Below, in pieces: positions 25,487-33,101 of a stretch of DNA of 64,000 bases (position 1 is the stretch's first letter; each line of letters starts with the position of its first letter). Under the pieces are notes generated by a model. It ran no database searches and was not told the origin of the DNA. It was given only the letters and a program-made list of their open reading frames with translations. This stretch comes from Escherichia phage JY01, in the sequence record OR995200.1. One strand, given 5' to 3'. The translations under genes and the position numbers were made by a program.

Positions 25487-25489
25487 AAC
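25460..25489 (-). promoter_or_regulatory. early (sigma70-type) promoter for the alt.-3-like ORF
   Basis: minus strand: GTTTAC - 18 nt - TATAGT; part of the 54-bp repeat. Confidence 0.55.
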
Positions 25490-27546
25490 TACATTTTGAA
25501 CTTTTTAGACATTCCGTTGATGTTAACCAAAGAAGCTAAGATTTGAGAAACTTCGTTTTCCTCTTCTTTTGATTCTTCTACAAGGAATTGATTAAATCCA
25601 GCCATTGGACGAACTTCACCAGTTTCCATTAGATGGTCGCCATCATATACTGATTCTTCTAATTGTTCAGAAGGAGGAACGATTGTACCTTCGATTAGAT
25701 ACTTGTTATAAGCAGTTTCTTTCATAAAGTAAGTACTTACTTTATTAATCTTCAGTAAAATTCCACGTGGTAGAATAACTTCAGCTTCTGATGGAAATCC
25801 TGACAAATGACCTGGAACGATAACTTTAACTCGTTCAGCTCCTTTAATTACCATACCCACGCTAGTTTCAGCATCTTCATTAGCATATGTAGAATGACTA
25901 CCCATATGCATCAAATCTTCTGCATCAACGGAACCTTCTCCTTCACCAGAAAATACTGCTCCGGAATTATCTAAGGCCATATAATTTTTACCATACTCAC
26001 CAAAGATATTTGGTTTAAGTGATGTCGATACGAAGTTCTTGAAATAGAACATTTTATTTTCAATGTTATGACGCAAAGTTTTAAAAGTAACTTCTTGTCC
26101 ACGGTAAAGTGTAGTTCCTGGAGGAAGAACTGAACCTTTAGCAAACGCAGAATCTAACGTCTCAATATGTTTAATAGCTCGTTCCATATATTCTTCACGG
26201 GTAGAATCTGGTTTACCTAAAAGGAATGAGTTCATTTCAACATATGAATCTGCACAATAATCTTCAATTACATCAGATTCAGCCTGAGTCAATCCTTTTG
26301 GAGTTACTTCAGTGCTTGCATATTCATACGCCTGAGCAGCGGATTCATCAATTAATTTATAAATGCCATTCATGACAAATTGAATAATAGCTGTCTTTTC
26401 ATCTGGCGTAGCTTTAGAACCTTTAACTAAATCATTGACAATTTTCTTAATAACATCAAAGCTATTAGAAATATTAATGTCAGCAAGATCGCTTAAAATT
26501 TTATCAGTTTTATAATCAAAAAATTCTTTATTCTTTAAATATTCTTGAGAACTTTGATATGTTATATCGCTCTGCAACTTGATAGATGGATCACGTAAAC
26601 GTGCATGGGCTAATGCAATATGATTTCGGAAGCTTTCTAGTTCATAATCACTAGATTTAAAACGAGAAGCACTCCTCATACCACCGATAGCTCCTTTGCT
26701 GAAGTTTGAACCAACCTGAATAACGCCAGAGTTCATTGGTCCTTCTGCTTTATATACCGGAACTTTAGATTCAAACTCTTGATATTTCTTAGCAGCAAAG
26801 CTATCACCCTGAAGTGAAGCATCAACAGTAGAATATTGAGCTTGTGCTGCTAATCGACGACTAATTTTAGTTTTCTGAATAACAGCTTGATCCGTACGCT
26901 TATCATTTTCTAAAGCAATAGAAGCAGCAACTGCGACAGCTTTAGGAACAGCATTACCTGTTTTAACGTCTACATAAACATCACCAACCTTTGATTCAAC
27001 TTTTGTGAATAACTCAGTTGAAATAGGAGGTACACCTGGAATGTCTTCTAAATTGGCATTTTTACGGTAAACCATAATATATGCATATTTCTTATCATAG
27101 TCCCAGATTTCCTTTAAAAGAACATATCGACCTGCTCCTTTAGTACGTACTAAACGGTCAGCAATAACTTGCATTTGACGAGCAGCGCCGTTTGTTTTAC
27201 TTTTTAGTACGCGGAATAGGCATGCATCAATTTTATACTGTTTCATTGTTTGAAGAGCAGTATCAAAAACCGCATTAATGACGCCAATTGGATTTCCACC
27301 CAAGTTTTTAAGCTTAACTAACGATAATTTCTCGTTGACGCCTATCATTACGATATGCATCATTTTGTCGCCTGGCTTAACGTTTTTATTCGTATCACCG
27401 CCAGAGGTGTATGTACAAAATCTAAATCCAGGAAGCACGCTTTCTTCACCGGCTTGAATAGCAAAAATTTGTGGTATTTTATGCTTAGGATTTAAGTTAA
27501 CAACCGGCGCCGAAGCGCCGTCAAATAATTCTGTAATAAGTTCCAT
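25489..27546 (-). CDS. Alt-family ADP-ribosyltransferase paralogue (685 aa)
   Basis: N-terminal MELITELFD targeting sequence; C-terminal R / STS / E-x-E triad (YRGQ, FVSTSL, EAEVILPRG); paralogue of the adjacent gene. Confidence 0.8.
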   Translation of the reverse strand: MELITELFDGASAPVVNLNPKHKIPQIFAIQAGEESVLPGFRFCTYTSGGDTNKNVKPGDKMMHIVMIGVNEKLSLVKLKNLGGNPIGVINAVFDTALQTMKQYKIDACLFRVLKSKTNGAARQMQVIADRLVRTKGAGRYVLLKEIWDYDKKYAYIMVYRKNANLEDIPGVPPISTELFTKVESKVGDVYVDVKTGNAVPKAVAVAASIALENDKRTDQAVIQKTKISRRLAAQAQYSTVDASLQGDSFAAKKYQEFESKVPVYKAEGPMNSGVIQVGSNFSKGAIGGMRSASRFKSSDYELESFRNHIALAHARLRDPSIKLQSDITYQSSQEYLKNKEFFDYKTDKILSDLADINISNSFDVIKKIVNDLVKGSKATPDEKTAIIQFVMNGIYKLIDESAAQAYEYASTEVTPKGLTQAESDVIEDYCADSYVEMNSFLLGKPDSTREEYMERAIKHIETLDSAFAKGSVLPPGTTLYRGQEVTFKTLRHNIENKMFYFKNFVSTSLKPNIFGEYGKNYMALDNSGAVFSGEGEGSVDAEDLMHMGSHSTYANEDAETSVGMVIKGAERVKVIVPGHLSGFPSEAEVILPRGILLKINKVSTYFMKETAYNKYLIEGTIVPPSEQLEESVYDGDHLMETGEVRPMAGFNQFLVEESKEEENEVSQILASLVNINGMSKKFKM

Positions 27547-27549
27547 GAT

Positions 27550-29643
27550 TTATCCTTGAACGAACTTGTAAGGCATGTTTGTAATATCTATGCAAGACGC
27601 AATAATTCCAAGAGATGATTCTACTTTCTGTTTAACGTTTGATGAAACAAATGATGCAAAGTCAACTCTGTCTTCTATTTCAATATCACCTGTCATTGCA
27701 ACTACTTCACCGGTTTCCATTAAATGGTCTCCGTCATAGATTACCGATTCGGTGAGCTCTTCCGTGGTCATAACTTCAGCTTGAATGAGTTTTGTATTAT
27801 TAAATGTTGTTCCGTCATTATTAGAAGCATCAGTTATTTTATTAACTTTGACCATCAATCCACGCGGTAGAATAACTTCAGCTTCTGTTGCTATTCCGAG
27901 ACTTCCTGGATATACAACATTAACTTTATGAGCTCCATCAATTGCCCATCCTATTTGAACTTTAACGTATTCAGGATTTTCTTTATACGCTCTTATTTCG
28001 TTTGGATTAATAGTTATTCCTTCTTCATTTTTATCAACTGTTAATTCATTGCGAGCTTCTGGTTCTAAAAGACCAATACCAGCATGTGTGATTCCAAAAC
28101 GTCCAAAAATGATAGGAGTTAAAGAAGTAGATACAAAATTTCTGAAATAGAACACTTTATTTTTAACTAACGCTTCATATATAGGAGCAGTCATACTTTG
28201 AGCACGATAAACTGTAATGCCTTCTGGTATACGGTCACCATTTTCAAAAGCTGAATCTAAGTTATTTATAGCAGATTCAATTTCTTTTTCACTCATTACA
28301 TCATATCGTTCTGGATTGTAACGACCTAAAAGAAGATTATTGATGTCAGTATATCCTGAACCGCAATATTCTCTAATGCCACGCTTTTGTGATGGAGTAT
28401 ATTTAGAACCATCGCGGGCAATAGTAATATCAATCATTGGACCAGCACCAATTCCAGAAAAACTGTAAATCATTCGTTTGAGGAATTTAGTTTTTGCTGC
28501 GTTCCAGGAATTTTTAGTTATTTCTTCCCAGACTTCATCTGGTTGTCCTTTACGATTTTTATTATGATTAGCAAGCCATTTATCTTTATAATCTTCAAAG
28601 AATTGATTTACAGCTGCTGCGTATTTCTCTAAACATTTTATTGAAGTAGTTGGTTCATTTTTAATTGCATTAAAAATTACTTCTTTAATTTTTTCTGAAA
28701 CTTCACCGACTTGACTCATTGGAAAGAATTTATAATCATAGTGAAGTTCATCTGCCGTTCCTTCAGCAATAATTTTTGCTGCCTTTGTTTTAGAAGCTAA
28801 TGAATTAATTCCAATTTTCATTTCTTCTGCTTCGGGAATTAAAGGTGCAGTAGCTGGTTTATTAAAATTAGCTGCTGTAGATTCATACTTCTGGAATAAT
28901 TCACTTTCAAATCTAGAAGATTCCAATGACTGACTTTGTGCAATTGCTCTACGGGAAATTTTAACTTTAACGATTACGGCTTGGTCAGAACGTTTATCAT
29001 TTTCTTGTGCAATAGATGCAGCAATTGCCTCATTTTTGGTTACTTGAGCTCCAGTATCTTTATTGATATAAACATCACCGACCTTCGATTCAACTTTAGT
29101 AAAGAGTTCAGTGCTAATTTCTGGAACTCCTGGAATGTCTTCTAATGATACATTTTTGCGATGTATAAGAATATATGCATACTTTTTATCGTAATCCCAG
29201 AGTTCCTTAAGAAGGACGTATCTGCCACCTGAACGACTGCGGATGAGTCTATCAGCAATAAGTTGAATTTGTCGAGCTTGACCGGCGGTTTTAGACTTAA
29301 GAATACGAAGCATGCAGGCATCAATTTTATATTGACGCATTGTTTGCATTGCAACAGTAAAAACTGAATTGATATAATTAATCGGGCTTGGACCAAGACC
29401 TTTTAATTTAGCAATTGAACCTTTAGCAGTTAATGTAAAAGGAACAATGTGCATCATTTTATCGCCCATCTTTAAATCACGATTAGTATCACCTTCAGAT
29501 GTATAGGTACATAAACGAAAGCCTGGTTGTTCAATTGCATCATCAACATGAACTGAAAAAATTTGTGGTATTTTCTTCTTTGGATTTAAGTTTGTAATCG
29601 GAAGAGTAGTATCTTCGTCAAATAATTCTGTAATAAGTTCCAT
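27550..29643 (-). CDS. alt: Alt ADP-ribosyltransferase (capsid-packaged, injected)
   Basis: 697 aa; MELITELFD N-terminus; YRAQ, FVSTSL, EAEVILPRG motifs; late promoter TATAAATA (minus) upstream; adjacent to DNA ligase as in T4. Confidence 0.85.
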   Translation of the reverse strand: MELITELFDEDTTLPITNLNPKKKIPQIFSVHVDDAIEQPGFRLCTYTSEGDTNRDLKMGDKMMHIVPFTLTAKGSIAKLKGLGPSPINYINSVFTVAMQTMRQYKIDACMLRILKSKTAGQARQIQLIADRLIRSRSGGRYVLLKELWDYDKKYAYILIHRKNVSLEDIPGVPEISTELFTKVESKVGDVYINKDTGAQVTKNEAIAASIAQENDKRSDQAVIVKVKISRRAIAQSQSLESSRFESELFQKYESTAANFNKPATAPLIPEAEEMKIGINSLASKTKAAKIIAEGTADELHYDYKFFPMSQVGEVSEKIKEVIFNAIKNEPTTSIKCLEKYAAAVNQFFEDYKDKWLANHNKNRKGQPDEVWEEITKNSWNAAKTKFLKRMIYSFSGIGAGPMIDITIARDGSKYTPSQKRGIREYCGSGYTDINNLLLGRYNPERYDVMSEKEIESAINNLDSAFENGDRIPEGITVYRAQSMTAPIYEALVKNKVFYFRNFVSTSLTPIIFGRFGITHAGIGLLEPEARNELTVDKNEEGITINPNEIRAYKENPEYVKVQIGWAIDGAHKVNVVYPGSLGIATEAEVILPRGLMVKVNKITDASNNDGTTFNNTKLIQAEVMTTEELTESVIYDGDHLMETGEVVAMTGDIEIEDRVDFASFVSSNVKQKVESSLGIIASCIDITNMPYKFVQG

Positions 29644-29885: not shown

Positions 29886-31345
29886 AAACCAGTTACCTCA
29901 TGAAAATCGCCAAATACATCTTCGAACGTATTAGCTTTAGTTTTATCTTCACGTAAACGAATTGCAATTGGAAGAAATAGCTTAACGTAATCAGTACGTC
30001 CATCTAATTTTACCCAGCCGTTGCATTCGCACTCTAGAATTTTTCCAATATAATAATTTTGGTTTTCCATAATGCGAGTACGATCAAGTTCATGCGATTT
30101 TATACCGGCTTTATCTTTTAAGCCTGAACCAGCATTTACTTTAATTTTTCCACACTCTGATTCAAGAATGAAACCACCTGCTTTAGTAGGGTCTTTACGG
30201 TGAGGATAAATTCCTACAATTTTTAAATCAACATCAATTACTTCTTTAAATTTATAAAGATTTTTTGAACGAGCATTTTCCCATAATCCATCGATATTTT
30301 TGAGAATAATACCTTCAAGACCTTGGTCAATATACTTTTTATAAATTACCTTAGCTTCATCTAGGTTATTTACTATCTGGTTTTCAATTAAAATTACTTT
30401 ATCATAGCCTGATGTCATTTGTTCTAGTTTAGAAAAACGTACATCATATTTTAAACGAAATGCTGGAAGACCATATATTTCTACTAATGGAACATAGTCC
30501 CAGACCTGAAACTTCATGCAGTGTGCTTCTTTTTCAGAAATGGTTCCCTTTAAAGATTTATTAGCGATTCCATTAGAAGTAGTACGTGATTCAGCTACTT
30601 CGGCGAATTCTTTAGCTTTACTAATTTCAGGATAAGCATCAAAAAGAAAATCTAGGCCTTCTGGTTCCTTTTCAACTTGCTCATGGTATACCAATTCGCC
30701 ATCAATTAACACACCTTCTGGATGAATCTGGCGAGCTTCTGCAGTCATTTTGATTAACTCTTCCTTGAGAAGATCTAATCCTAGATATTCATTACCAGCT
30801 CGTGATAAAAGACGAACATCATCTAATTCATCACCTCTGACTTCAGCAAAGCACCGAGCTCCATCAGCTTTTAACTGGGCAAAAGCTGGAAATTTGATAT
30901 TCTTATTAATGCCTTTTTCATCATAAGAACTTGCCAGCATTTGAGGTTGTTCAGGAATTAAACCTGGCCAAACTTTGTTTGCAATAGATACTGATGCACC
31001 ACATTCAAGGTCTCGCATCATCACCCGACGCAAAACTTCAACATCATCTTTTTTACCGTCAGCAATATATCCAGTTAATTCCTCAATTGCCGCATTTCCG
31101 GTCAATTTCCGAGTAGCTAACGTGAATTCAATGAAGTCAAGCATATCGGTAAGAGTCAACATTCCAAAACTCTGGGTAGTAATACCCGGTTTAGGCCATT
31201 TCTTGATATAATACTGTAACCCACGAGAATAAGTCAGACGATATACTCGTTTAAGCAATTCATTATCTTTATTCTTTTCAAGAATTGCTTGCTTCTGCTT
31301 AGTTGAACCAATAGATGCTATTTCGTTCAGAATTTTAAGAATCAT
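29882..31345 (-). CDS. 30: ATP-dependent DNA ligase gp30
   Basis: 487 aa; adenylation motif KADGAR; T4 ligase length. Confidence 0.95.
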   Translation of the reverse strand: MILKILNEIASIGSTKQKQAILEKNKDNELLKRVYRLTYSRGLQYYIKKWPKPGITTQSFGMLTLTDMLDFIEFTLATRKLTGNAAIEELTGYIADGKKDDVEVLRRVMMRDLECGASVSIANKVWPGLIPEQPQMLASSYDEKGINKNIKFPAFAQLKADGARCFAEVRGDELDDVRLLSRAGNEYLGLDLLKEELIKMTAEARQIHPEGVLIDGELVYHEQVEKEPEGLDFLFDAYPEISKAKEFAEVAESRTTSNGIANKSLKGTISEKEAHCMKFQVWDYVPLVEIYGLPAFRLKYDVRFSKLEQMTSGYDKVILIENQIVNNLDEAKVIYKKYIDQGLEGIILKNIDGLWENARSKNLYKFKEVIDVDLKIVGIYPHRKDPTKAGGFILESECGKIKVNAGSGLKDKAGIKSHELDRTRIMENQNYYIGKILECECNGWVKLDGRTDYVKLFLPIAIRLREDKTKANTFEDVFGDFHEVTGL

Positions 31346-31611
31346 TGTTCATCCTTTAGAGTTTGGTTTACAGCTCTATTATAAATCAATTCATCATTAA
31401 GCTCAGGCAAAGACTTATGATATGTAGTTCTAACTTTATTTCCTTGCATCCAGTGCTTAACGTAAATGAAACCTTGCTCTACACATTTTTTAAAAATTCG
31501 TTCGTCTTTTTGAGCTCGGAATTCTGGATTACATCTAAAAAATTGATTTACGTGACCGTAATCACGTGTAGTATTACCTTCATTTTCATAAATAGTGTGA
31601 ACAACAAACAT
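31342..31611 (-). CDS. hypothetical protein (30.1-like)
   Basis: 89-aa ORF, overlapping junctions. Confidence 0.6.
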   Translation of the reverse strand: MFVVHTIYENEGNTTRDYGHVNQFFRCNPEFRAQKDERIFKKCVEQGFIYVKHWMQGNKVRTTYHKSLPELNDELIYNRAVNQTLKDEQ

Positions 31612-32447
31612 TAGAATGCTCCTTGGAAAATATTATCACCACAAGTAGGTCTATTATACAAATACTCTATGCCACCGGGTTTAATATAGTTCCATGTCTG
31701 AAAAGGATGCGTCTGATATGGATGATATAGATTATAAGGATTAAATCCAGGAGTTCTCCAGGTAGTGTTCCAAGGAAAAGAATCGTTTTTAATCATCTTC
31801 TCAATTACATCTTTTATAACTTTTTCACTATCAAAACTTTCTTTATTTTCCTTCGATGGAAAAAGCTTATTCTCTACATCATTCCATGTATAAACTCGCT
31901 GTGCAGTTTTTGGAATACTGTCACGTTCCCCTCGAGCCATCCAATAAACAGGAACATTTAATATTTCACTCGCGTGGTCGCAGTGGTGAGCAAGATCGTC
32001 AATATAACAAATTACGTTATATTTTTCTTTTGCCTTTTTGAACAACTCTTCTTTTGAAGAATCATGACCACACATTAATATTTCTGAGAAGGCACCAGGA
32101 AAAAGAGCATTCAAATTAAATTGACGATTCAGCAGAGCGTCAATAGAATCACCCAGTGCTGTAACAGCTACAAAATTATAATCTTCTTTTAATTTGTTAA
32201 TTACACACAGGGCATCTTTATACGGAGACAAGTAACGAATAAAATCTGAACGATTGTATTTTTCAATTAACTTGACACCAAGTTCTTCATCGCAATTAAA
32301 GAGCTTACCAGGAGAAATAAATTTTTCGTCCTGAATCATTTTTAAAATATGTTCTAATGGAAGATTATATTTTTGGGCAAAATAAGGAAGACCTGATTGC
32401 CAGCTTAAACATACACCATCAATATCAGTCAAAATAGTAGGCTTCAT
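31611..32447 (-). CDS. HAD-superfamily hydrolase-like protein (30.2-like)
   Basis: 278 aa; N-terminal ILTDIDGV (HAD motif I, DxDG) and later YIDD (motif IV-like). Confidence 0.6.
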   Translation of the reverse strand: MKPTILTDIDGVCLSWQSGLPYFAQKYNLPLEHILKMIQDEKFISPGKLFNCDEELGVKLIEKYNRSDFIRYLSPYKDALCVINKLKEDYNFVAVTALGDSIDALLNRQFNLNALFPGAFSEILMCGHDSSKEELFKKAKEKYNVICYIDDLAHHCDHASEILNVPVYWMARGERDSIPKTAQRVYTWNDVENKLFPSKENKESFDSEKVIKDVIEKMIKNDSFPWNTTWRTPGFNPYNLYHPYQTHPFQTWNYIKPGGIEYLYNRPTCGDNIFQGAF

Positions 32448-32908
32448 AGAGAGTCTCTTAATAGGTTTAACACATCAATAAATTCAGCTTCGGTTAGTAT
32501 TGTATCATCTTTTGTTAGACCACTAGCCATGCTGTGCTTCAAAACTTTTCCTTTCGAGGCTTGTAATGCATCACGAAAGCCCTTGTTTTGGATCGCTGCT
32601 TCAAAATATGCATTTGTGTATAATTCTTTCCACGCTGAGGAGTATCTTGAAAACGGAACTCCAAGCCAAAAGAGGGTCCCACGGTCCTGAGCTCTTGCAT
32701 AAGACCTTCCAGCTTGTTGGGCGGCAAGCCCGGATAACCCAAATATACGACGTTGTTGTTCAACATTTTTCACCTTGCATCCTTGGAGGAATCCTTCAAG
32801 ACCTCCAAATTGGATACCATCCATAACAAAAGGCCATTGGGCGAAATTACTTAATGCACATGATGGCCACCTAAAATTGCTTCTAATCTCTAACTCAGAC
32901 ATTTTCAA
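32444..32908 (-). CDS. NADAR/YbiA-like domain protein (30.3-like)
   Basis: 154 aa; LSNFAQWPFVMDG...EGFLQGCK and C-terminal VLNLLRDSL resemble the YbiA/NADAR (DUF1768) signature as I recall it. Confidence 0.55.
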   Translation of the reverse strand: MKMSELEIRSNFRWPSCALSNFAQWPFVMDGIQFGGLEGFLQGCKVKNVEQQRRIFGLSGLAAQQAGRSYARAQDRGTLFWLGVPFSRYSSAWKELYTNAYFEAAIQNKGFRDALQASKGKVLKHSMASGLTKDDTILTEAEFIDVLNLLRDSL

Positions 32909-33101
32909 TGCTTATAATTTCAACATCAGCCCAATGACCATAGCAAGGAAGACGAAATTCAACTGGCCAGTTAGGGTCCTTTTCTAATATAATAGACTCA
33001 ACTCGTGGTTCTTCATGTTCATCAGTATATGGATTTTTATCTGTTACTTTATATGTGACTTTAATGTATTGAATTCCAAAAATCTTATTAATTATATTCA
33101 T
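32895..33101 (-). CDS. hypothetical protein
   Basis: 68-aa ORF in the tightly packed 30.x early block. Confidence 0.5.
   Translation of the reverse strand: MNIINKIFGIQYIKVTYKVTDKNPYTDEHEEPRVESIILEKDPNWPVEFRLPCYGHWADVEIISIENV

What the first reader, a model, noticed from the sequence alone, without database searches (positions are those of the whole stretch)
31611..32908. NADAR/YbiA-like ORF beside a HAD-like hydrolase, about 2 kb from the Alt genes
The 154-aa ORF (32444-32908) has LSNFAQWPFVMDG...EGFLQGCK and a C-terminal VLNLLRDSL segment that align by eye with the YbiA/DUF1768 (NADAR) signature. NADAR domains have been linked to ADP-ribose and NAD-derived metabolism, and I recall reports that they can reverse DarT-type DNA ADP-ribosylation. 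The neighbouring 278-aa ORF starts with the HAD motif ILTDIDGV. Together with DNA ligase and the Alt ADP-ribosyltransferases nearby, this forms a cluster of ADP-ribose and nucleotide chemistry that may act as an anti-defence or repair module.
Basis: partly seen in the sequence, partly recalled or inferred. Interest (0 to 1): 0.6.

Follow-up and report, generated by a model that had tools for sequence, protein, structure and literature searches.

The report
T4 AdfN NADAR gene beside HAD phosphatase
The small ORF is the T4-type phage gene 30.3 (adfN), an enzyme already shown by experiment to strip ADP-ribose off phage DNA and defeat the bacterial DarTG1 defence; its neighbour is an uncharacterised HAD-type phosphatase that published data say is not needed for that job, so the finding is correct but already known.

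Summary
The window comes from a T4-like phage (Tequatrovirus). The two ORFs are T4 genes 30.3 and 30.2, both on the minus strand.

**gp30.3**
- It is 150/152 identical to T4 gp30.3, which was published as AdfN in 2025. AdfN is a NADAR-fold DNA ADP-ribosylglycohydrolase that reverses DarT1 guanine ADP-ribosylation.
- E36 and H123 are invariant in the family and K43 is nearly so. The C-terminal helix that RB69 lacks is intact here.

**gp30.2**
- It is a genuine HAD phosphatase with all four motifs invariant or nearly so. Its closest characterised relatives are 5'(3')-deoxyribonucleotidases. Its substrate is unknown.

**The proposed ADP-ribose module (Alt, ligase, 30.2, 30.3)**
- This is not supported. 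In published T4 transposon sequencing on a DarTG1 host, 30.3 insertions are lost (log2FC -7.25), while 30.2 (-0.12), 30.1 and alt are unaffected.
- Across viral contigs the HAD stays next to the ligase, whereas the NADAR is often absent or about 55-60 kb away.

Interest is low.

The parts
32444..32902 (-). Gene 30.3 / adfN: 152-aa NADAR-fold DNA ADP-ribosylglycohydrolase (anti-DarT factor NADAR).
32795..32797 (-). Codon GAA for E36, the catalytic glutamate (equivalent to E43 of the Phytophthora NADAR, which contacts the distal ribose).
   Evidence: Invariant in 49 homologues. Aligns to the Glu of YbiA 'SEHYFQ'. The E36A mutant loses activity in the T4 protein. Role of E43 from PMC11543638.
32774..32776 (-). 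Codon AAG for K43, a conserved catalytic-site lysine.
   Evidence: At least 90% conserved. Aligns to the Lys of YbiA 'AQKF'. K43A is only partly active in the T4 protein.
32534..32536 (-). Codon CAC for H123. This last-strand histidine defines the phage gp30.3 branch of NADARs; the YbiA family has Glu and DarT1-linked NADARs have Asp at this position.
   Evidence: Invariant in 49 homologues. Described in PMC11125620 and PMC11543638.
32444..32491 (-). The last 15 codons plus the stop: the end of the C-terminal helix that the RB69 frameshift allele lacks. It is intact here.
   Evidence: The sequence reads through to ...EFIDVLNLLRDSL*, as in T4. Helix 138-151 in the model. The truncated form has reduced activity.
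31611..32447 (-). Gene 30.2: 278-aa HAD-superfamily phosphatase. Residues 1-195 form a C1-capped core and the C-terminal ~80 residues are disordered. Its start overlaps the adfN stop (ATGA).
32412..32426 (-). HAD motif I, D8-I-D10-G-V: the nucleophile Asp and the general acid/base Asp.
   Evidence: GATATTGATGGTGTA read. D8 and D10 invariant in 44 homologues.
31995..32000 (-). HAD motif IV, D150-D151 (Mg2+ ligands).
   Evidence: GAC GAT read. Invariant in 44 homologues. T96 (motif II) is at least 90% conserved and K132 (motif III) is invariant.
32895..33101 (-). Gene 30.4 (68 aa, unknown function), immediately upstream. Its stop overlaps the adfN start by 8 nt, so adfN translation is probably coupled to it.
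   Evidence: T4 30.4 insertions are mildly depleted on DarTG1.
32539..32766 (-). ORF 30.3' (75 aa), in the +1 frame inside adfN. T4 annotates it as an internal translation product.

Best explanation
The 152-aa gene (32444-32902, minus strand) is the orthologue of T4 30.3/adfN. It encodes a stand-alone NADAR-fold enzyme made early in infection. The enzyme hydrolyses the N-glycosidic bond between ADP-ribose and guanine in phage DNA that the host DarT1 toxin has modified. This releases ADP-ribose and restores a replicable template, so the phage escapes the DarTG1 abortive-infection defence. The active site uses E36, K43 and the clade-specific H123, and the C-terminal helix is needed for full activity. 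All of these are intact here, so this phage is predicted to resist DarTG1.

The 278-aa gene downstream (30.2) is a separate, non-essential Mg2+-dependent HAD phosphomonoesterase with a helical C1 cap. It most resembles 5'(3')-deoxyribonucleotidases, so it probably dephosphorylates a small nucleotide-like substrate.

The two genes are co-transcribed and translationally coupled, but they are neighbours by inherited T4 gene order, not parts of one ADP-ribose machine.

Shown by published experiment for the 99%-identical T4 protein: AdfN activity and the DarTG1 phenotype. Shown here: orthology, fold and conserved residues. Inferred: the phosphatase chemistry of 30.2, and more weakly its nucleotide substrate.
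For: **Orthology and synteny**
- 150/152 and 270/278 identity to T4 gp30.3 and gp30.2, with the same gene order as T4.

**NADAR assignment**
- PF08010 at 9e-70.
- 15/49 family members also hit PF08719 NADAR, best E 1.5e-7.
- The family profile hits YbiA 2b3w at E 0.004, with E36 and K43 aligned to YbiA's Glu and Lys.
- E36 and H123 invariant, K43 at least 90% conserved.

**Published function of T4 AdfN**
- Deleting adfN makes T4 and T2 sensitive to DarTG1. Ectopic expression rescues RB69. Purified protein removes ADP-ribose from DNA, and the E36A mutant does not (PMC11825919).
- The protein is specific for guanine-ADPr and does not act on thymine-ADPr (PMC11125620).
- Tn-seq: 30.3 log2FC -7.25, q = 0 on a DarTG1 host.

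**gp30.2**
- Motif residues D8, D10, K132, D150 and D151 invariant and T96 at least 90% conserved.
- Closest to NT5C-type enzymes by three routes: the family profile's best PDB hit is 2jao at E 0.006, 8/44 members hit PF06941, and the Foldseek top hit is 2jao at E 9e-8.

**Independence of the two genes**
- 30.2 log2FC -0.12, q = 1 on DarTG1.
- Only 19/80 NADAR loci have the HAD within 5 kb, and 36/79 HAD loci have the NADAR within 5 kb.
- The HAD keeps ligase downstream in 66/79 loci.
Against: - No assay was done on this phage's own proteins. Two substitutions relative to T4 AdfN (P89S, I125M) are untested, although both residues occur in homologues.
- The window protein does not itself reach any threshold for PF08719.
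- T4 AdfN does not rescue uninfected cells or non-T-even phages from DarT1, so an unidentified T-even factor contributes. The mechanism is therefore incomplete.
- NADAR-HAD adjacency on the same strand persists in 36/79 divergent T4-like contigs. This is compatible with, though not evidence for, some functional tie.
Confidence: 0.88

Rival explanations
1. 30.3, 30.2, DNA ligase and the Alt ADP-ribosyltransferases form one functional ADP-ribose/nucleotide anti-defence or repair module. In this view the HAD processes a product or intermediate of NADAR action, or acts as the unknown T-even factor that potentiates AdfN.
For: - Overlapping start and stop codons link 30.4-30.3-30.2-30.1-30 into one tightly packed run.
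- The NADAR lies upstream of the HAD on the same strand in 36/79 HAD-anchored viral contigs, some with only about 40% identity.
- Published work says AdfN-T4 needs an unidentified T-even-encoded factor for full activity. RB69, in which ectopic AdfN works, is a T-even-type phage, whereas T5 and Bas25 are not.
Against: - T4 Tn-seq on a DarTG1 host: 30.2 log2FC -0.12 (q = 1), 30.1 -0.01, alt -0.01, against 30.3 at -7.25.
- 61/80 NADAR loci lack the HAD within 5 kb. In at least 9 complete T4-like genomes the two genes are about 55-60 kb apart.
- None of the 61 NADAR loci without the HAD has Alt nearby, and only 2 have ligase.
- AdfN alone de-ADP-ribosylates DNA in vitro.
- Alt is a virion-packaged enzyme that acts on host RNA polymerase (T4 annotation). 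That is unrelated chemistry apart from the use of NAD.
Confidence: 0.05
2. gp30.3 is a housekeeping YbiA-type N-glycosidase that destroys reactive riboflavin-pathway intermediates or other NAD-derived small molecules, rather than a DNA de-ADP-ribosylase.
Against: - The last-strand residue is His, not the Glu that defines the YbiA family.
- The T4 protein acts on guanine-ADP-ribosylated DNA and is conditionally essential only on DarTG1 hosts.
- Published phylogeny places the clade nearest DarT1-associated NADARs.
Confidence: 0.03
3. gp30.2 is a nucleic-acid end-healing 3'-phosphatase (PNKP-like HAD) that prepares nicks for the adjacent DNA ligase, rather than a small-molecule nucleotidase.
For: - The HAD keeps ligase downstream in 66/79 contigs, whether or not the NADAR is present.
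- There are weak hits to the PNKP phosphatase domain (PF25109, E 0.18) and to the PHROG polynucleotide kinase family (E 0.0023).
Against: - The model has a helical C1 cap of about 60 residues inserted after motif I (helices 16-72). From established knowledge of HAD enzymes, this type of cap closes over small substrates, and PNKP-type phosphatases that act on polymers lack it.
- The best sequence and Foldseek matches are deoxyribonucleotidases.
- T4-type phages already encode PseT, which has a 3'-phosphatase domain.
- 30.2 is fully dispensable in T4 (72/72 TA sites hit).
Confidence: 0.08

Closest known systems
T4 gp30.3 = AdfN (anti-DarT factor NADAR), Johannesman et al., Nat Commun 2025 (PMC11825919)
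   Same: 99% identical (150/152), the same length, the same genomic position between 30.4 and 30.2, the same catalytic residues E36, K43 and H123, and an intact C-terminal helix.
   Different: Two conservative substitutions (P89S, I125M). No experiment has been done on this allele.
DarG1, the DarT1-associated NADAR antitoxin (e.g. Geobacter lovleyi NADAR, PDB 8bat; E. coli C7 NADAR)
   Different: gp30.3 has no N-terminal extension. Its last-strand catalytic residue is His rather than Asp. It is not encoded next to a DarT. The T4 protein does not neutralise DarT1 in uninfected cells.
E. coli YbiA (PDB 2b3w) and Phytophthora NADAR (PDB 8bau), YbiA family / Pfam PF08719
   Different: About 20% identity. 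The window protein falls in Pfam PF08010, not PF08719. It has His instead of Glu in the last strand. YbiA has a housekeeping role in riboflavin metabolism.
Cytosolic and mitochondrial 5'(3')-deoxyribonucleotidases (NT5C/NT5M; PDB 2jao, 2i7d, 1q92; Pfam PF06941), the closest characterised relatives of gp30.2
   Same: A HAD core with DxDGV motif I and IDD motif IV, a four-helix C1 cap, and an aromatic residue at D+8 (W16 aligned with Phe). It is the top Foldseek hit and the best profile hit.
   Different: 15-18% identity. The window protein has no Pfam hit at E <= 0.1. It carries an extra disordered aromatic/Pro-rich C-terminal tail of about 80 residues that is variable or absent in homologues. 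Its substrate is untested.

Membership tests
NADAR superfamily | [quoted passage not shown] | tested here: met
NADAR superfamily | Significant profile match to the NADAR domain model (PF08719) | tested here: inconclusive
   The window protein has no PF08719 hit at E <= 1; it matches PF08010 at 9e-70. However, 15/49 family members hit PF08719 (best 1.5e-7), and the family profile hits YbiA at E 0.004.
NADAR superfamily | Conserved catalytic Glu and Lys in the E-x-F-x-Q-x(2)-K helix | tested here: met
   E36 invariant and K43 at least 90% conserved in 49 homologues. Both align to the Glu and Lys of YbiA. Mutational data exist for T4.
Phage gp30.3 / AdfN-T4 clade of NADARs | Histidine replacing the last-strand Glu/Asp | tested here: met
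   H123 invariant. The feature is defined in PMC11125620 and PMC11543638.
Phage gp30.3 / AdfN-T4 clade of NADARs | Full-length C-terminal helix (no RB69-type frameshift) | tested here: met
   152 aa ending ...VLNLLRDSL, identical to T4 over the last 27 residues. Helix 138-151 in the model.
Phage gp30.3 / AdfN-T4 clade of NADARs | Guanine-ADP-ribose DNA glycohydrolase activity and DarTG1 counter-defence | not testable with these tools
   Shown for the 99%-identical T4 protein in vitro and in vivo, not for this allele.
HAD superfamily (gp30.2) | Four catalytic motifs: I DxDx[TV], II S/T, III K, IV DD | tested here: met
   D8, D10, K132, D150 and D151 are invariant and T96 is at least 90% conserved in 44 homologues.
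HAD superfamily (gp30.2) | Rossmannoid HAD core fold with cap | tested here: met
NT5C-type 5'(3')-deoxyribonucleotidases (Pfam PF06941) | Match to the family model above its threshold | tested here: not met
   The window protein has no hit at E <= 0.1. Only 8/44 homologues give weak hits (best 1.2e-4). The resemblance is nearest-neighbour only.
NT5C-type 5'(3')-deoxyribonucleotidases (Pfam PF06941) | dNMP phosphatase activity | not testable with these tools
   No biochemical data on gp30.2 were found in the searched literature.
Single functional 'ADP-ribose module' (Alt + ligase + 30.2 + 30.3) | Shared requirement under the relevant selection (DarTG1) | tested here: not met
   Published T4 Tn-seq, Data S6: 30.3 -7.25 (q = 0); 30.2 -0.12, 30.1 -0.01, alt -0.01 (q = 1).
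Single functional 'ADP-ribose module' (Alt + ligase + 30.2 + 30.3) | Conserved gene linkage beyond close relatives | tested here: not met
   19/80 NADAR-anchored loci have the HAD within 5 kb, and 36/79 HAD-anchored loci have the NADAR. NADAR loci without the HAD have ligase in 2/61 and Alt in 0/61.

The most novel reading that the evidence does not exclude
The HAD phosphatase gp30.2 has a specific, so far unrecognised role, for example as a phage nucleotidase tied to the adjacent DNA ligase, or as a redundant contributor to the unidentified T-even factor that AdfN needs for full activity. It is translationally coupled to adfN, it stays next to DNA ligase in most T4-like phages, and it has no known function. 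The Tn-seq data exclude a non-redundant role against DarTG1, but not a redundant or condition-specific one.
Probability: 0.08. Interest if true: 0.5.

Novelty: already known. Interest (0 to 1): 0.15.

Why it matters
The finding re-derives, from sequence alone, a counter-defence gene that was characterised experimentally in 2024-2025. AdfN lets T-even phages erase DarT1's ADP-ribose marks from their DNA. For this window, the practical conclusion is that the phage carries an intact adfN allele and should plate on DarTG1 hosts, unlike RB69.

Two questions in this area remain open, and this locus does not settle either. One is the identity of the T-even factor that potentiates AdfN. The other is the substrate of the widely conserved, dispensable HAD phosphatase gp30.2.

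Tried and rejected
- Direct sequence searches of both proteins against PDB chains gave nothing significant. Family profiles were needed.
- NCBIfam has no model for either protein or for the two Alt paralogues. PHROGs lists both families as of unknown function.
- I tested whether the gene next to a distant gp30.3-type NADAR in a 308-kb phage-like contig is a gp30.2 homologue. It is not (hhalign probability 0.1).
- I considered gp30.2 as the missing AdfN-potentiating factor and rejected it as the main reading because of the Tn-seq data and the broken linkage.
- I considered gp30.4 for the same role. It accompanies the NADAR only in the group with at least 84% identity, and its mild Tn-seq depletion is most simply a polar effect.
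- Literature searches for gp30.2 found no functional study.
- I tried to read the HIDEN-SEQ LB-versus-M9 values for 30.2, but the part I fetched did not contain that row, and I did not pursue it.
- The AFDB Foldseek library was unavailable.
- The promoter and terminator scan was no richer than shuffled sequence and was not used.

Full report
**What the window is.** The 1.9 kb around the finding matches 678 phage records, mostly Escherichia and Shigella T4-like phages. The best matches are about 97-98% identical. Gene order is that of T4: alt, alt.1, 30 (DNA ligase), 30.1, 30.2, 30.3, 30.4 through 30.9, rIII, 31, and so on, all on the minus strand. The two ORFs of the finding are therefore T4 genes 30.3 and 30.2.

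**Check of the observation.** The 154-aa length comes from an upstream TTG. T4's annotation and the published residue numbering use the ATG at 32902, which gives 152 aa. Start and stop codons overlap throughout the run, so the genes are tightly packed and probably translationally coupled:
- 30.4/30.3 by 8 nt
- 30.3/30.2 by 4 nt (ATGA)
- 30.2/30.1 by 1 nt
- 30.1/30 by 4 nt

**gp30.3 is AdfN, a NADAR.** The protein is 150/152 identical to T4 gp30.3 and matches Pfam PF08010 (Phage_30_3) at 9e-70. It does not itself hit PF08719 (NADAR) even at E <= 1, so I tested the superfamily link in other ways.
- In an alignment of 49 homologues reaching down to about 35% identity, E36, H123 and the SNF motif are invariant and K43 is nearly so.
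- 15 of the 49 members also hit PF08719, best E 1.5e-7.
- The family profile finds E. coli YbiA (2b3w) as the only meaningful PDB hit (E 0.004).

**This is already published.**
- Johannesman et al. (Nat Commun 2025, PMC11825919) mapped DarTG1 resistance of T-even phages to 30.3 and renamed it adfN. Deleting it makes T4 and T2 sensitive to DarTG1. Ectopic expression rescues RB69, whose own allele has a frameshift that removes the last 15 residues. The purified protein removes ADP-ribose from DNA, and the E36A mutant does not.
- Earlier work had already classed gp30.3 proteins as the phage branch of NADARs, marked by a histidine in the last strand. It also showed that the T4 enzyme hydrolyses guanine-linked but not thymine-linked ADP-ribose (PMC11125620 and PMC11543638).
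- A transposon-sequencing preprint confirms that 30.3 is dispensable on plain K-12 but lost on a DarTG1 host.

The window's allele is full length and carries all three key residues. It differs from T4 only at P89S and I125M, both at variable positions. The phage is therefore predicted to resist DarTG1.

**gp30.2 is a real HAD phosphatase of unknown substrate.** It is 270/278 identical to T4 gp30.2.
- In 44 homologues from diverse T4-like phages, the four HAD motifs are invariant or nearly so: D8-x-D10 (motif I), T96 (II), K132 (III) and D150-D151 (IV).
- The model is confident for residues 1-195 and shows a helical cap inserted after motif I. The last ~80 residues are aromatic/Pro-rich, modelled with low confidence, and variable or missing in homologues.
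- Three weaker lines agree on the nearest characterised subfamily, the 5'(3')-deoxyribonucleotidases. The family profile's best PDB hit is 2jao (E 0.006). 8/44 members hit Pfam NT5C. Foldseek's top hit is 2jao (E 9e-8), with the lowest rmsd values among the listed hits going to the cytosolic and mitochondrial deoxyribonucleotidases (cdN/mdN).
- The invariant W16 aligns with the Phe at D+8 of cdN. From memory, that Phe stacks on the base of the bound nucleotide.
- The presence of the second Asp of motif I argues for phosphoryl transfer rather than dehalogenase chemistry. This rests on established HAD knowledge.
- No Pfam or NCBIfam model reaches its threshold, and no functional paper was found.
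- In T4 the gene is fully dispensable: 72/72 TA sites were disrupted.

**Is there a module?** The evidence says no.
- In the DarTG1 Tn-seq sheet, 30.3 has log2FC -7.25 (q = 0). 30.2 is at -0.12, and 30.1 and alt are at -0.01 (all q = 1). Only 30.4, whose stop overlaps the adfN start, is mildly depleted (-1.79, q = 0.014), which is most simply a polar effect.
- I fetched 80 viral contigs anchored on gp30.3-type NADARs and 79 anchored on gp30.2 homologues, then scanned them with both family HMMs. Only 19/80 NADAR loci have the HAD within 5 kb. 36/79 HAD loci have the NADAR upstream. In at least nine complete T4-like genomes the two genes lie about 55-60 kb apart.
- The HAD keeps DNA ligase downstream in 66/79 loci regardless of the NADAR. 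NADAR loci that lack the HAD have ligase in 2/61 cases and Alt in 0/61.
- A distant NADAR in a 308-kb contig has an unrelated neighbour.

The pattern is that of an accessory NADAR gene that sits in the 30.x early region in T-even phages and elsewhere in others. It lies beside a more stably placed HAD-ligase pair.

**What remains open.** Published work notes that AdfN-T4 fails to neutralise DarT1 in uninfected cells and only weakly helps T5 or Bas25. This implies an unidentified T-even factor. gp30.2 is an obvious positional candidate, but the Tn-seq result argues against a non-redundant role. gp30.4 is found next to the NADAR only in close relatives.

**Verdict.** The NADAR and HAD readings are correct. 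The anti-DarT function is correct but already demonstrated for this gene. The wider ADP-ribose cluster idea is not supported. Novelty: already known. Interest is low.

Noticed in passing
window 25489-27546 and 27550-29643 (both minus strand): There are two tandem full-length Alt-type ADP-ribosyltransferase paralogues (685 and 697 aa, 41% identical). Both keep the FVSTS and EAEVILPRG motifs. T4 itself has one alt gene plus the short remnants alt.-1 and alt.-2 of an old duplication.
   Followed up: partly
window 32539-32766 (minus strand), inside adfN: The T4-annotated overlapping ORF 30.3' (75 aa, +1 frame) is intact here. A +1-frame stretch of 76 codons is open in 13 of the 14 close relatives checked (T4 included; 61 codons in L016). 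However, its amino-acid sequence drifts and the start Met moves, and in distant homologues the longest open stretch is only 22-66 codons. This looks more like a by-product of the adfN frame than a conserved protein.
   Followed up: partly
window 32895-33101 (gene 30.4, minus strand); T4 data: In the published T4 Tn-seq on DarTG1, insertions in 30.4 are mildly but significantly depleted (log2FC -1.79, q = 0.014). 30.6 to 30.9 are unaffected, and the apparent drop at 30.5 (-3.00) is not significant (p = 0.64). The 30.4 stop overlaps the adfN start by 8 nt, so polarity or translational coupling is the simplest reading, but a helper role is not excluded. gp30.4 homologues flank the NADAR only in the group with at least 84% identity.
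   Followed up: partly
window 31611-31850 (C-terminal ~80 codons of 30.2): gp30.2 carries a C-terminal tail rich in aromatic residues and Pro (FPWNTTWRTPGFNPYNLYHPYQTHPFQTWNY...). It is modelled as disordered (pLDDT < 55). In homologues it is highly variable in length and sequence or absent, which suggests an add-on interaction segment rather than part of the enzyme core.
   Followed up: no
loci L086-L164 (viral contigs with gp30.2 homologues): The HAD gene has a DNA ligase gene downstream on the same strand in 66 of 79 contigs, whether or not a NADAR is present. This linkage is tighter than the one with the NADAR.
   Followed up: partly
window 31342-31611 (gene 30.1, minus strand): gp30.1 is an 89-aa DUF3045 protein (PF11243, E 6e-63) of unknown function, wedged between the HAD and ligase genes with overlapping stop and start codons. 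It is neutral in the DarTG1 Tn-seq.
   Followed up: no
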